A stretch of DNA of 64,000 nucleotides, taken from positions 245,458 to 309,457 of the forward strand of contig JBFWJS010000003.1 of NCBI GenBank assembly GCA_050253075.1, in the 5' to 3' direction. The notes beneath the pieces are model-generated. The model ran no database searches. It saw nothing but the letters and a program-made list of their open reading frames with translations, and was not told the origin of the DNA. The stretch is from Deferribacterales bacterium. Its GTDB lineage: Bacteria > Chrysiogenota > Deferribacteres > Deferribacterales > Geovibrionaceae. Shown here in pieces: positions 32,462-37,346 of the stretch; the stretch's first letter is position 1; every line of letters begins with the position of its first letter. The translations under genes and the position numbers were made by a program.

Positions 32462-32551
32462 GTAATTAAAGTAAAAAATCACATCTCCATTAAAAATTCA
32501 TAATTGATTATAACGATGGTTGCGTTACAATCAAAATATGGAGGTGTGAAA

Positions 32552-34816
32552 ATGAAAAGAATAATCAGTACGCTGATCTTGTGCAGCTTTCTCATATACG
32601 GCTGCGGAGGCGGAGGCGGAAGCAGCAGTGGAGCGGTAGACGACTCAGGCGGAAGCTCGGTCAGCTCCGGCGTTGCAGTCGACCCATATCTTAAAGATGC
32701 GATATTCTGTGTGGATATCGATCAAAACGGCATCTGCGGTGCAGATGAGCCCGAATCTACCCCTAGTGACGAAAACGGTGTATTCACTTTCGATAACTAC
32801 GAAGTTCAGGAAGGGGACATCATCCTGATGAAATCAGCAGGCACACACAACGGCGTGCCTTTCCAATACGCTAAAATGATCGCAGTGTATCAGGGCGGAG
32901 ACCTCATAGTTTCCCCGCTGACAACACTCCTTGCGAAGAGCCTCGACGCTGCTCAGATCGTAGCTCTTTTAGACCCGATTGGCACATACGGACTGACAGC
33001 AGACCTCGTCAGCATGGACCCTGTAGAGATAGTGGAGTCTATCGGTACAGAAGTTCTGACAGATGCGAACCTCGCAGCCATCAGAGCATCCATCGGCGCA
33101 TACATGCTGCTCCGTATGATAGATGCTAATCCTGCCCTTGCAGACCTTTCAGGCGACGACCTTGTGAACAATGACGACGTCAAAGACCTCGCAAGCAACA
33201 TGATGGCTATCGTTGCAGAGGCTATCACTGTCGAAAGGATAGAAGACTTCCAGACTATGGTGGATAACTCAGGCGTGGACGGACTCCCCGCTGTGGACAT
33301 CATGGACATCATCTACACAGCAGTGACCATATGCGACTATGCACTTGAGCTCGGTGAAGCCGAATTTGAGGCAAACGGAAACGTGAACGGCGTTATCAAC
33401 GCTATGAACTCATTCAAAAATACTCAGATGACAGCCCTTATCGATGAGGTAGGACCTAATCAGTATGTATACAGACTTAAAAGAGAACACGGCATAAACA
33501 TTCCTAACGGCGTGCCTTTCAGCACTGTGGACTTCAATGCATGTTCTCAGGGACTCCACATCGGCGGAAACGGCAGACCAATGTGCTACGGCGACGATGA
33601 AGAAACTGAAGCAACAGATGAGGAGATAGCCGAGGCTGTTGCCGATGCTCCTGAGATCAAGTTCGACTTTGACGAAGCATCATACACACCGCCTGCGGGC
33701 GCAGGTGATGCCAGAGCATCCAGCAGGATAGGCTTTGGTACAAATGCTGTCGGTGCATGCTATGTTTACGGCATCAGATACAACGCAAGCGAATTTGTCC
33801 CTAATGCGGACTATCTCAGATGTGTGGTTTCTGAAACTGCCGAAGCAGGCTACCTCGAAGGTATCAGCGAAGGCGCAGTTTACCTTAAGCTCACAAATTC
33901 TGATAATCAAAATCACTTTGCTAAGCTCACATACTCAAACGGCACAGCCACAGCAGACATCTGCTACAACCAGAATATGGCAGCCGACTATGCACCTGTA
34001 AAACAGAATGCACGTGTAACTGTGACATACTCCGAAGACGGCTATGTCGTAAACAGCACGATGCTTCTGGACAATAACTGGAACGGCACTCCTGAAGGGC
34101 TTGTGGAAGAAGGTCTTAAGATCGATGCTTCTGCCAGCGTTTCCGAGAGCGAAGGCGAGATGTATAGCTTCATCATCCACTTCCTTAACGAGCAGGGGGC
34201 AAACTGTGCGGATCTTCCTTCCGGTTCTTCCGCAACAGCCACAGACGACCAGTGCTTCCTCAGATACGAAGGAAACATATACTACGGACTCAGTGAAAGC
34301 GACGTCAGCTTCAGCAAGTATGACGGTCTCTTTGTTGAAAAAGTGTATGACGGAGGCCCCGGCGCATTCCTTGCGGGCGGATCAGTCTCTGCCGTTATCA
34401 GCGGCGGAAGTGCTTACTCCAGATATGCAGGCCTGACAACAGATACAGTATCATTTGACCTTGGTACACCTGAAAGCGAAGCCTGGACAGCCAGCAGTCT
34501 GCTTATCGATGCTCTGAGTTCCCTCGGGGCTGTTTTCGGCGAAATTCCGCTGCCTGAGAGAACAGTTACAATACCGGCTATCGAAGATGCTTGGGACTGC
34601 TCGGCAGACGCTTTTGTCACAGTCGATACAGACAGTATCGCAGGTATGGCTGATTGTGTAAGTGACAGCTCGCTTATAAACTTTGTCGGTGCCGCTGACC
34701 TTACAACATGTTCCGAAGGTACAGACAGCCCGACATTCCAGCAGCTTATGGATAACTACAGATGTAATGATGAAGATCCGCTTACGCTGAATGCCAACAT
34801 GTGCGCACCGGATTAA
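32552..34816 (+). CDS. large acidic Cys-rich lipoprotein of unknown function
   Basis: GGAGG SD; lipobox IYGC plus poly-Gly; VDPYL..A..CVDIDQNGIC..DEP motif (DxDxNG). Confidence 0.8.
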   Translation: MKRIISTLILCSFLIYGCGGGGGSSSGAVDDSGGSSVSSGVAVDPYLKDAIFCVDIDQNGICGADEPESTPSDENGVFTFDNYEVQEGDIILMKSAGTHNGVPFQYAKMIAVYQGGDLIVSPLTTLLAKSLDAAQIVALLDPIGTYGLTADLVSMDPVEIVESIGTEVLTDANLAAIRASIGAYMLLRMIDANPALADLSGDDLVNNDDVKDLASNMMAIVAEAITVERIEDFQTMVDNSGVDGLPAVDIMDIIYTAVTICDYALELGEAEFEANGNVNGVINAMNSFKNTQMTALIDEVGPNQYVYRLKREHGINIPNGVPFSTVDFNACSQGLHIGGNGRPMCYGDDEETEATDEEIAEAVADAPEIKFDFDEASYTPPAGAGDARASSRIGFGTNAVGACYVYGIRYNASEFVPNADYLRCVVSETAEAGYLEGISEGAVYLKLTNSDNQNHFAKLTYSNGTATADICYNQNMAADYAPVKQNARVTVTYSEDGYVVNSTMLLDNNWNGTPEGLVEEGLKIDASASVSESEGEMYSFIIHFLNEQGANCADLPSGSSATATDDQCFLRYEGNIYYGLSESDVSFSKYDGLFVEKVYDGGPGAFLAGGSVSAVISGGSAYSRYAGLTTDTVSFDLGTPESEAWTASSLLIDALSSLGAVFGEIPLPERTVTIPAIEDAWDCSADAFVTVDTDSIAGMADCVSDSSLINFVGAADLTTCSEGTDSPTFQQLMDNYRCNDEDPLTLNANMCAPD

Positions 34817-35099: not shown

Positions 35100-36242
35100 T
35101 TATAGCGGGCTTTTAGTTTTAAATTCTGTAAAGTGCAGAAATACACTCAGGGCAGAGCCTTCGTGCGTGTATTCCGCATGACCTTTGAAATTATTTTCCA
35201 AAAGTTTTTTGATGAACATTAATTCCATTTCAGCATCGTCTTTGACTCTGGTATAGCTGATCTTCACAGTCAGCAGTCCGTCGTTTATCATATGCTCAAA
35301 GGTGATCTTATTGTTCTCTTTCCCTTCGATTATACCGAGGGTGATGAGGTGGCGGATGAGGAACTGATAAAGCTCTTTGTCGCCGCTGATGACCACATTC
35401 CCTTTGTTACATCCGTGGAAGCATTTTTTCGTACCCGTACCGCATCGAATCTTAAAATTTTCTGTGATGTCGATGAACGTCTCGGTGATGATGTCGCCTA
35501 GTGCATGACAGTTCAGGCTGACGTGTGTTTCGGTCTTTTTCAGGATGTCGTTCAGTCTCTCTATGTTGTTAAACATGGTCTCAGAGATGTTTATGATATC
35601 CTCGTCTGAATCGTTAGAGTAGAAGACCGCCATCTCGTCGATGGATTCAGACAGCCTCGATATCTCGTTGAAAACCTGCCTTGTGGCAAAGTTCATATAG
35701 TATTTTGTAAGGCTGCTGTCTTCGAACTGTTCCTTTATGTCCTGAGTGAAGAGCGAGATGCTGTTCAGAGGCTGTCTCCATGTGTGCATGGATTCAGATA
35801 TGATTTGTCTGACTATCTCGTTGTCGTCGCTCTTGTTCTCCAGCTTTCTCTGCTTATACTGGGCTGTGGTATCGTATATCTTCACTGTGTATATTTCGTC
35901 ATCTTCTATAACTTGATAACACGCCGTGAGGAACATCCAGTAAGAGCTGTCCTCGGAATATAAGGGGAACTCATAGGTGAAGCATCTGGTAAGGTCGCCA
36001 TGCAGCTCTTTCAGACCCTTTATGATGTTATGGATGATCAGCTCGTCTTCGTGCAGATACTCCGACATAAGGTCTCTGAGCGAGATATTCTTGCCCTCTG
36101 TAAGTTTTGTCTGTAATATCTCTAGTAGAGATTTGAAAGAGTTATTCACCCAAAGTATATCTAACTCTTTATTTAACAGAACAATCTTTTCCGGGCTGTT
36201 TGTGTAAGTCCTAATAATATGTTCTTGAACGTTGATTTGCAT
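35100..36242 (-). CDS. PAS-like + HisKA-like protein with degenerate ATPase domain (pseudokinase or phosphotransferase)
   Basis: N-terminal PAS-like segment (IVLLNKELDILWVNNSF); H-box HTWRQPLN; no N/G1/F/G2 boxes visible. Confidence 0.7.
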   Translation of the reverse strand: MQINVQEHIIRTYTNSPEKIVLLNKELDILWVNNSFKSLLEILQTKLTEGKNISLRDLMSEYLHEDELIIHNIIKGLKELHGDLTRCFTYEFPLYSEDSSYWMFLTACYQVIEDDEIYTVKIYDTTAQYKQRKLENKSDDNEIVRQIISESMHTWRQPLNSISLFTQDIKEQFEDSSLTKYYMNFATRQVFNEISRLSESIDEMAVFYSNDSDEDIINISETMFNNIERLNDILKKTETHVSLNCHALGDIITETFIDITENFKIRCGTGTKKCFHGCNKGNVVISGDKELYQFLIRHLITLGIIEGKENNKITFEHMINDGLLTVKISYTRVKDDAEMELMFIKKLLENNFKGHAEYTHEGSALSVFLHFTEFKTKSPL

Positions 36243-36503
36243 GCGGAGTATAATATCTGAATTAAATTTTTTTTCAATCAGAAATTACTTAACATTTGAT
36301 AAAAAAGACAAAATAAGTATAGTAATATAAATGGCTGTTAATATTAACTTTTGCGGACTATCTGAAGATAAAAAGTATCATATAAAATTTTGATAGTTAT
36401 CAATGCTTTGAGCATTGATGCGGGTGTGATGCGAGAAAATTAACGTATAATAAACCTAACAAAAAATTGGTAAGTATATTTAACTACCCGGCGATGGAGT
36501 GTA

Positions 36504-36767
36504 ATGGCAGAATTCACGGTAAAAATCGTCGATCAGCGAGCCACCTCTGGTATACTCTGAGGTGATTGTCCTCTTTTAATTAAGAGGCACCTCATAGGTC
36601 TATGGGGTATAGACTCGGTCGACTTTGACCTACAGACTGCGACCTTTCATGTTGTGTCCCGTGTGACACATGCAGGTGCTCTGCGCCTTATTATCAGCAG
36701 AGGGTTAAATGCCTTATCTAAAATACATTTCAAAGATTTCAAAGTTTATTCCATAGAGCCGAAATAA
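36504..36767 (+). CDS. probable selenoprotein: HMA (CopZ/MerP-like) domain with UxxC, 87 aa
   Basis: GGAG SD, ATG 36504; hand translation MAEFTVKIVDQRATSGIL-U(TGA 36558)-GDCPLLIKRHLIGLWGIDSVDFDLQTATFHVVSR...EPK-TAA; SECIS-like hairpin follows; terminator directly after the stop. Confidence 0.72.
36589..36608 (+). promoter_or_regulatory. putative bacterial SECIS element
   Basis: Stem ACCUCAUA/UAUGGGGU with apical GGUC loop 36 nt after the UGA; the AGGUCU core matches the E. coli fdhF SECIS apex. Confidence 0.62.
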
Positions 36768-36790
36768 AAAAAGGCTCCGAAGAGCCTTTT
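36768..36790. terminator. bidirectional Rho-independent terminator
   Basis: AAAAAGGCTC-CGAA-GAGCCTTTT between convergent genes. Confidence 0.8.
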
Positions 36791-36791
36791 G

Positions 36792-37346
36792 TCATTGTAT
36801 CATAAATATCAGGAAAATGACCGGTATGGCAAAGCCTGCCGTGGTCAGCAGTATGCCTCTCCGCATAGTCTTCTTTCTTATCATCAGGAGCCCCGATATA
36901 GCCAGATAGGCGAGGAGTACGGCATAAATATCTGCTGCTATTGTCCATGCCCCCTTCGGCTTATTCAGGTGCAGATAGTTCAGCTCATACAGGATAGGGC
37001 GCTTTTCAAATTTTATTATGTCTACACGCCCGGTGGGGAGCGATATGTCTATCGTGTTATCCCCTGCGAATATGCGCATTACCTCCGGCGACATCATAGA
37101 CACATTCTTAAACTCGCCGTAATCGCCGAGCTCTGCCATCTTTTGTCTCACCAGATTCATATCGGGCTGTACGTTCATAGGCACTGGAGTCACCTGTGCG
37201 AAGCTCCGTTCTATCTTATAGCTGGGGTTGAACTCTCTGGATAAATGGTTCACCGCGACACCGCTTATCGCATATAAAAGTGTCAGTCCGATGCAGAGGA
37301 ACCCTATGTCCCTGTGCAGTATATAGTTTATCTTACGCCAATTCAT
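36792..37346 (-). CDS. PepSY-associated TM-helix membrane protein
   Basis: LHRDIG...YAISGVAVNH and LNYLHLN...W...AD...AISGL. Confidence 0.8.
   Translation of the reverse strand: MNWRKINYILHRDIGFLCIGLTLLYAISGVAVNHLSREFNPSYKIERSFAQVTPVPMNVQPDMNLVRQKMAELGDYGEFKNVSMMSPEVMRIFAGDNTIDISLPTGRVDIIKFEKRPILYELNYLHLNKPKGAWTIAADIYAVLLAYLAISGLLMIRKKTMRRGILLTTAGFAIPVIFLIFMIQ

What the first reader, a model, noticed from the sequence alone, without database searches (positions are those of the whole stretch)
36496..36790. Hidden selenoprotein: HMA domain with a Sec-x-x-Cys metal site and a SECIS-like hairpin
Seen: in the apparent 550-bp gap there is a gene with SD, ATG (36504), one in-frame TGA at codon 19, TAA (36765) and a terminator. 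Read through, it gives GIL-U-GDC-PLLIKRHL.GL.GIDSVDFDLQTATFHV. That lines up with the HMA pattern GM-x-CxxC...I...L..L.GV..V.VDL....A.V, with the TGA at the first Cys position. An 8-bp stem with a GGUC apex lies 36 nt downstream. Established: bacterial SECIS elements sit within the CDS just after UGA and carry a G-led apical loop (E. coli fdhF: CAGGUCUG); UxxC HMA-type selenoproteins (MerP-like) are known but rare. Inference: a cytoplasmic Sec-containing Cu/Hg chaperone or sensor that standard gene callers would miss.
Basis: partly seen in the sequence, partly recalled or inferred. Interest (0 to 1): 0.85.

Follow-up and report, generated by a model that had tools for sequence, protein, structure and literature searches.

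The report
Hidden selenocysteine metal-binding protein gene
A small gene in an apparent gap has an internal "stop" codon that very likely encodes selenocysteine, giving a predicted metal-chaperone-type protein of a family we did not find in the catalogues checked; its relatives appear to carry two, one or no selenium atoms at the predicted metal site.

Summary
Observation confirmed. An 87-codon ORF (36504-36767, +) has one in-frame TGA at codon 19 (U-G-D-C) and an 8-bp GGUC hairpin 36 nt later. The genome has selA, selB, selD and tRNA-Sec. Of 68 phylum genomes, 8 keep the TGA and 7 have Cys; all 8 show Sec machinery. A hairpin stands in the same register in 7 of 7 TGA genes tested and 0 of 7 Cys genes, with 4 of 8 pairs compensated. 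The predicted fold is HMA (pLDDT 90). A metagenome scan gave 40 relatives, 38 with two TGAs (UxxU) and one covarying hairpin. The family scores far below the known HMA selenoprotein model NF041115 and has a 6-residue loop insertion. Selenocysteine reading about 0.9; soft-metal chaperone/buffer role about 0.6; thiol-redox role is the main rival; no copper or mercury specificity shown. This copy is divergent and absent from three congeners. HMA selenoproteins are a known kind, and this scan noted several other HMA-Sec families on other DNA. New variant of a known kind.

The parts
36496..36499 (+). Shine-Dalgarno-like GGAG, 4 nt before the ATG
   Evidence: sequence
36504..36767 (+). 87-residue ORF read through one TGA; predicted HMA (ferredoxin-like) fold
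36558..36560 (+). In-frame TGA, codon 19, predicted selenocysteine; first position of UxxC
   Evidence: TGA in 8 and Cys in 7 of 68 phylum genomes; kept in a strain from an independent study
36567..36569 (+). Cys22, second position of UxxC (TGA in 38 of 40 metagenome relatives)
36589..36608 (+). SECIS-like hairpin: 8-bp stem, loop GGUC at 36597-36600, 36 nt after the TGA
   Evidence: consensus model in PMC13188914
36558..36594 (+). Competing fold in naked mRNA: the TGA region 36558-36564 pairs with 36588-36594 around an inner hairpin 36570-36587 and masks the SECIS 5' arm; predicted only, not seen to be conserved
36769..36790 (.). Terminator-like hairpin shared with the convergent PepSY-TM-like gene; called on the minus strand
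36296..36323 (+). One of three sigma70-like consensus matches on the plus strand of the scanned region; weak evidence in AT-rich DNA
   Evidence: 6 sites on both strands against 2.3 expected

Best explanation
The gene has an in-frame TGA followed by a conserved hairpin, and it very likely makes an 87-residue selenoprotein, predicted to have an HMA fold, that likely binds a soft metal or metalloid ion through a Sec-x-x-Cys pair. Steps: (1) shown in DNA: start, TGA, open frame, hairpin, Sec machinery. (2) Inferred from the known bacterial pathway: a ribosome reaching the UGA melts a competing fold, the GGUC hairpin forms, SelB delivers Sec-tRNA, and translation continues; without selenium an 18-residue peptide would result. 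(3) Predicted: the protein folds beta-alpha-beta-beta-alpha-beta with U19 in the first loop and C22 at the start of helix 1. (4) Inferred from fold and from neighbours of relatives: it works as a small cytoplasmic chaperone or buffer for Cu(I), Hg(II) or As(III)-type ions, the selenolate giving tighter or faster binding than a thiolate. Which ion and which partner are not shown. Step 2 about 0.9, step 4 about 0.6.
For: selA 524 bits, selB 293, selD 339 with its own TGA, tRNA-Sec 68.8, all over cut-off. TGA ends 451 of 1,510 long ORFs here, so it is a normal stop otherwise. 8 of 68 phylum genomes have the TGA form, 7 of 68 a Cys form (same 15). 7 of the 8 have selA and selB; the eighth (G035, 87% complete) has tRNA-Sec and TGA-selD. 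G-loop hairpin of -8.0 to -12.5 kcal/mol at 35-36 nt in 7 of 7 TGA genes tested (G035 left out; same 72 nt as G029), none better than -1.5 in 7 of 7 Cys genes. 4 of 8 pairs changed on both sides, 91% of cells paired against 38-54% when slid. It meets the published bSECIS model: 16-37 nt, 3-9 nt loop with G, <= -7.5 kcal/mol (PMC13188914). Hairpin probability 0.42 naked, 0.95-0.97 with 9-18 nt after the UGA blocked. This copy has no Met after the TGA, so a restart cannot explain it. Model pLDDT 90; best matches are HMA domains, Z 9.0, rmsd 2.4, 72 aligned; the family profile hits 44 PDB sequences, nearly all HMA. A strain from another study keeps the TGA; both in-gene differences are synonymous (n = 2). 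7 of 19 metagenome clusters have metal or arsenic genes within 4 kb: MerT-HMA plus ArsR, CopA, CusA, HMBD, MerA-like, arsenosugar cluster, ArsP. In G000 and in the Cys-form loci the gene lies before a ZntB-like gene.
Against: No expression or selenium data. 8 of 19 metagenome clusters have AhpC/TSA or thioredoxin-reductase-like neighbours instead or as well, and 5 have neither. In 4 genomes the gene sits between housekeeping-type genes. G000's copy is not next to a Cu or Hg pump; no ArrA match and no MerA over cut-off in G000; it has a separate, better-scoring CopZ-like gene. The 36-nt spacing is at the edge of the model and an outlier here: four other candidates in G000 have 17-25 nt. In G035 the hairpin has probability 0.00-0.25 in full context. 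All 4 compensatory cells come from one row (G000), and the structure was derived from that row. This copy is on a long branch (3.67), has lost the family's GM, has a weak codon-usage score (0.003 against 0.13-0.26 for four neighbours) and was not found in the 3 other genomes of its genus. Pfam HMA is below cut-off.
Confidence: 0.6

Rival explanations
1. It is a real selenoprotein with the HMA fold but works as a small redox carrier: UxxC/UxxU cycles between reduced and selenenylsulfide or diselenide forms, passing electrons or sulfur between a flavin reductase and a peroxiredoxin-like or sulfurtransferase partner.
For: 8 of 19 metagenome clusters lie next to AhpC/TSA and/or Pyr_redox_2 genes, in several as Prx-like, gene, reductase-like in one row. 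In G022 the gene follows a TtrA-like molybdoenzyme and a rhodanese. The family differs from CopZ/MerP by a longer first loop and a Pro after the second Cys. Most bacterial selenoproteins are thought to be redox proteins (PMC9312934, abstract start).
Against: The fold matches are metal-binding HMA domains, not thioredoxins; 7 of 19 clusters lie with Hg, Cu or As genes. The clusters are related marine genomes, so neighbour counts are not independent.
Confidence: 0.25
2. The family is a genuine selenoprotein family, but this copy is a fading relic: inherited at the photolyase-ZntB interval, under relaxed selection and little expressed.
For: Long branch, 17-30% identity to family members and loss of GM, weak codon usage, not found at the same place in G002 and G003 nor elsewhere in G001-G003. 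Some metagenome copies are cut short (L061, L083).
Against: Frame, ribosome site and terminator intact; all 8 stem pairs kept through 4 double changes that also change amino acids; confident fold; 2 of 2 strain differences synonymous.
Confidence: 0.11
3. The TGA is a true stop (nonsense mutation, or a leader peptide with restart at the next Met) or is read as Trp.
For: In relatives a Met follows the TGA and databases start the protein there; some database proteins show W at this place.
Against: The TGA recurs in three families of the phylum and in 40 metagenome loci; the part before it is the first strand of the fold and continuous in Cys forms; this copy has no Met there; P0080's W is a TGA in the matching stretch of L070, so W is a gene-caller artefact; TGA is a common stop in G000; the hairpin follows the TGA forms only.
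Confidence: 0.04

Closest known systems
NCBIfam NF041115 UxxU_metal_bind, 'metal-binding (seleno)protein' (listed as putative mercuric reductase, UxxU, in PMC13188914 and PMC9312934)
   Same: Small stand-alone HMA-type protein with Sec at the CxxC site; best NCBIfam hit of this protein.
   Different: 19.8 bits against a cut-off of 95; 11 metagenome relatives score 19.6-43.5. Where the match spans the loop, the family has six extra residues (40 residues on 34 positions; 68 on 62). This copy is UxxC.
CopZ / Atx1 / MerP metallochaperones (Pfam PF00403)
   Same: Predicted fold and place of the two ligands.
   Different: Sec for the first Cys; GM separated from the motif by six more residues, and lost in this copy; Pro after the second Cys; long second helix; below Pfam, CopZ and MerP cut-offs; not beside copA or a mer operon in the window.
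Sec-containing cation-transporting P-type ATPase (TIGR01525, UxxC) and MerT/CopZ fusion selenoprotein NF045683
   Same: Sec in heavy-metal transport proteins; UxxC motif listed for the ATPase (PMC13188914 table).
   Different: Those are membrane proteins; this is a free 87-residue domain. One relative scores 21 bits on NF045683 against 375.
'Mercuric transport protein MerP' selenoprotein of the GOS survey (PMC2398784)
   Same: Name and marine origin suggest overlap with the UxxU relatives.
   Different: The two supplement sequences carry a UC motif unlike this family, and searches for this family's motif in the four supplement files found 0.

Membership tests
Bacterial SelB-dependent selenoprotein gene | selA, selB, selC, selD in the genome | tested here: met
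   all over curated cut-offs
Bacterial SelB-dependent selenoprotein gene | TGA conserved in relatives and aligned to Cys in others | tested here: met
   8 TGA and 7 Cys forms among 68 genomes; Cys form P0038
Bacterial SelB-dependent selenoprotein gene | In-frame SECIS: 16-37 nt spacing, 3-9 nt loop with G, <= -7.5 kcal/mol | tested here: met
   36 nt, GGUC, -8.0 to -8.8 kcal/mol; model from PMC13188914; covariation
Bacterial SelB-dependent selenoprotein gene | Selenium found in the protein | not testable with these tools
   needs 75Se labelling or MS
HMA domain (PF00403) | beta-alpha-beta-beta-alpha-beta fold | tested here: met
   pLDDT 90; Foldseek E 3e-4 to 1e-2 to HMA chains; Z 9.0, rmsd 2.4, 72 aligned
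HMA domain (PF00403) | Two ligands x-x apart at loop 1 / helix 1 | tested here: met
   U19 in the loop, C22 at the start of helix 22-31; aligned to CxxC of PDB HMA domains
HMA domain (PF00403) | Pfam gathering score 24.8 | tested here: not met
   21.0 bits; three relatives 14.4-20.2
HMA domain (PF00403) | Metal binding | not testable with these tools
   needs in vitro binding
NF041115 UxxU_metal_bind | Score of 95 bits or more | tested here: not met
   19.8 bits; relatives 13.6-43.5
NF041115 UxxU_metal_bind | UxxU motif | tested here: not met
   UxxC in this copy; UxxU in 38 of 40 metagenome relatives
CopZ copper chaperone | CopZ model cut-offs and linkage to a copper ATPase | tested here: not met
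   14.1 of 91 and 12.1 of 85 bits; flanking genes are not ATPases; CopA beside relative L039 only
MerP | Export signal and mer operon context | tested here: not met
   No hydrophobic leader by inspection; no mer genes among the neighbours scanned; no MerA over cut-off in G000. Relative L091 follows a MerT-HMA gene
NF045683 MerT/CopZ fusion selenoprotein | N-terminal MerT membrane domain | tested here: not met
   87-residue single domain

The most novel reading that the evidence does not exclude
An uncatalogued HMA-fold family forms a natural UxxU / UxxC / CxxC series in which one hairpin decodes two UGA codons 9 nt apart (31 and 22 nt spacing), while the single-Sec lineage uses a hairpin at 35-36 nt, the far edge of the known range; in this genome the hairpin is masked until a ribosome reaches the UGA, so full-length protein would be gated by ribosome position and selenium supply.
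Probability: 0.25. Interest if true: 0.7.

Novelty: new variant of a known kind. Interest (0 to 1): 0.48.

Why it matters
It adds a missed gene and a family that annotation pipelines truncate or mistranslate. Natural two-Sec, one-Sec and no-Sec versions of one small soluble domain, including Cys versions in Sec-capable genomes at the same chromosomal interval, allow a direct test of what selenium adds to a metal site. Its two covariation-supported hairpin positions give test cases for how far from the UGA a bacterial SECIS can work, and whether one SECIS can serve two close UGA codons; E. coli's sits 11 nt from the UGA (PMC8659212). Sec in HMA sites is already known, so this extends a known theme.

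Tried and rejected
Single-sequence searches found nothing; only profiles reached relatives. The Lentisphaeria hit L029 is a chance match. 17 of 57 metagenome pattern hits scored 14.3 bits or less and were dropped; L084 was dropped later as cut by its contig end, leaving 39 loci in 19 clusters. The pattern demanded TGA then Met-Gly, so it cannot give the Sec-to-Cys ratio at the first position. Of 114 neighbour ORFs listed 90 went to Pfam; others were scanned or left out as likely shadows. Eight further 'stop inside' rows were fetched: seven were ordinary CopZ genes with their normal stop, one a chance match. No remnant in the G002 gap. The tree does not resolve ancestry: P0001 groups with the UxxC forms at 89/76 on a long branch. 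No RNA holder listed. Whether the metagenome hosts have Sec machinery could not be checked; taxonomy of database hits could not be looked up; no language-model atlas comparison was obtained. A TusA-like sulfur carrier was considered because of the Cys-Pro (topology recalled, not from a call) and set aside since the predicted order of elements is HMA-like; TusA not being listed does not exclude it. Haft and Tolstoy 2025 (PMC12013261) is not held; bioRxiv supplements are closed; the BSepDB supplement held only a genome list, so BSepDB contents and GenBank/RefSeq Sec annotations of relatives are unchecked. Paper searches gave no description of this family. No complex prediction was run.

Full report
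Observation. Between a minus-strand kinase-like gene (35100-36242) and a convergent PepSY-TM-like gene (36792-37346) lies an ORF from ATG 36504 to TAA 36765-36767 with one in-frame TGA at codon 19, giving U-G-D-C. An 8-bp stem with loop GGUC starts its loop 36 nt after the TGA; 140 of 19,870 random in-gene codons of this genome have an equally good G-loop stem in the 16-37 nt range. The downstream hairpin 36769-36790 is terminator-like, called on the minus strand.

Sec machinery. The genome (99.9% complete) has selA, selB, selD with its own TGA, and tRNA-Sec, all above curated cut-offs. TGA ends 451 of 1,510 ORFs of 300 codons or more, so the code is standard. A survey of read-through candidates gave 77 rows, mostly noise; four carry motifs I recognise from memory as SelW-like, UXX-star, HesB-like and peroxiredoxin selenoproteins, with loops GGUCU, GGU, UGGAU and GGUC at 21, 23, 25 and 17 nt (labels not tested by HMM). 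The loop here is typical for the genome; the 36-nt spacing is not.

Relatives in the phylum. A four-sequence profile found the gene in 15 of 68 genomes: 8 with TGA at the same codon (this genome, 4 of 4 in genus g7, 3 of 3 in g11) and 7 of 7 in sister genus g4 with Cys. A 32-sequence profile returned the same 15 at 65 bits or more, then ordinary CopZ and ATPase domains at 36 bits or less. Source names put one g7 copy in Deferribacter thermophilus and two g4 copies in Seleniivibrio woodruffii. selA was found in 28 and selB in 27 of 68 genomes; 7 of the 8 TGA genomes have both, and the eighth, 87% complete, has tRNA-Sec and TGA-selD. All 7 Cys-form genomes also have selA and selB, so the Cys form is not forced by loss of the machinery. 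Kin are not independent, so these are three lineages, not eight events.

The hairpin follows the TGA. 7 of 7 TGA genes tested have a G-loop hairpin of -8.0 to -12.5 kcal/mol at 35-36 nt; none of 7 Cys genes has one better than -1.5. Between this gene and the other six, 4 of 8 pairs changed on both sides while pairing was kept, although the amino acids changed too; 91% of cells pair, against 38-54% when slid. Caveat: all four changes come from this one row. The hairpin meets the consensus given in PMC13188914 (passages read). In naked RNA a rival fold pairs the UGA region with the hairpin's 5' arm (probability of the hairpin 0.42); blocking 9-18 nt after the UGA, as a ribosome would, raises it to 0.95-0.97. 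Five relatives form it with high probability either way; G035 does not (0.00-0.25), which counts against a uniform picture.

Wider family. A DNA pattern scan of metagenomes gave 57 loci; 40 scored 29.8 bits or more on the profile, 17 scored 14.3 or less and were dropped. 38 of the 40 have a second TGA (U-M-G-U-P), 2 have UxxC; many have a hydrophobic leader by inspection; two are cut short by a stop. Their hairpin sits five bases earlier, loop UGGAN, 31 nt from the first and 22 nt from the second UGA; in 19 sequences 98% of cells pair, 4 of 5 pairs show double changes in 10 cells, and the Leu codon in the hairpin is CTG in 19 of 19. In protein databases the family is mangled: of 26 hits I fetched, 9 begin at the Met after the TGA and 8 show W at the Sec place; P0080's W is a TGA in the matching stretch of L070. 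Sec machinery of these hosts is unchecked.

Protein. The model has pLDDT 90 and the order beta-alpha-beta-beta-alpha-beta. Foldseek and VIA-align rank HMA domains first (Ccc2a Z 9.0, rmsd 2.4, 72 aligned), and the family profile hits 44 PDB sequences, nearly all copper/zinc/mercury HMA domains. The family differs from CopZ/MerP by six extra residues between GM and the first ligand and a Pro after the second. This copy has lost the GM, is 17-30% identical to the others and sits on a long branch.

Context. Here the gene stands alone between photolyase and a ZntB-like gene; the Cys genes of g4 lie in the same interval and orientation in the two long loci fetched, so they are likely positional orthologues (pairwise E 8e-5). 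It was not found in the three other genomes of the genus; in G003 the two flanking genes are adjacent. In g11 it precedes a PhnD-like binding protein, kinase and regulator, behind an ArrA-like operon (1,156 bits, under the 1,600 cut-off) or a TtrA-like gene and rhodanese. In g7 it lies between genes I read as uvrB and a penicillin-binding protein (labels by inspection). Of 19 metagenome clusters, 7 have Hg, Cu or As genes within 4 kb, 8 have AhpC/TSA or reductase-like neighbours (one has both), 5 neither. A strain from an independent study keeps the TGA, and its two in-gene differences are synonymous. Codon usage is weak.

Mechanism. Shown: the DNA anatomy, machinery, conservation and covariation. 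Inferred: SelB-dependent Sec insertion (about 0.9). Predicted: HMA fold. Inferred: soft-metal or metalloid chaperone/buffer (about 0.6), with a redox carrier (0.25), a fading copy (0.11) and a true stop (0.04) as rivals.

Comparison and novelty. Sec in HMA-type sites is known: NF041115 (UxxU), the UxxC P-type ATPase (PMC13188914, passages and part 2 of section 7; PMC9312934, passages) and NF045683. This family scores 13.6-43.5 bits on NF041115 against 95, so it works like these but is not a member. I found it in none of: those two tables as far as read, PMC12013277 (passages), PMC1976440 (passages and section 12), bioRxiv 2022.07.06.499078 (passages), PMC2398784 (passages and supplement search), PMC13326102 (passages; supplement only a genome list). 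PMC12013261 and bioRxiv supplements could not be seen and may bear on novelty. Earlier notes of this scan report several other HMA-Sec families in other genomes (unchecked), none alike by sequence. Verdict: a real, likely functional selenoprotein gene of a new variant of a known kind; interest 0.48.

Noticed in passing
G000 C1:679566(-), C1:660750(-), C1:39357(+), C4:29075(-): Four further likely selenoprotein genes with in-frame TGA and G-loop hairpins at 17-25 nt (SelW-like, UXX-star, HesB-like, peroxiredoxin by recalled motifs).
   Followed up: no
window 35100-36242 (-): 380-aa sensor-kinase-like ORF with no Pfam or NCBIfam hit; 44-52% identical in three congeners, with two TAA inside the match in G001.
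   Followed up: partly
window 32504-34816 (+): 770-aa acidic, lipoprotein-like ORF without Pfam hit; a similar gene lies at this interval in G001.
   Followed up: no
L020-L026 (genus g4): Cys-only versions have no NCBIfam match; five end in one or two extra Cys residues that could be additional ligands.
   Followed up: no
L027 3-7738, L111 5401-13650: The same gene + binding protein + kinase + regulator block follows an ArrA-like operon in two genomes and a TtrA-like gene with rhodanese in a third.
   Followed up: partly
L091 3361-4957: MerT-HMA fusion directly followed by a UxxC family member and, two genes on, an ArsR regulator.
   Followed up: partly
L046 2731-8026: UxxU member between an arsenosugar cluster (ArsS, ArsM-like, two glycosyltransferases), an AhpC/TSA gene and a reductase-like gene.
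   Followed up: partly
L061, L083, L067: Family copies that stop or diverge shortly after the UxxU motif; broken genes or assembly errors.
   Followed up: no
window 36494-36565 (+): A short out-of-frame ORF starts just before the ribosome site and ends at a second TGA right after the Sec codon; probably chance.
   Followed up: no
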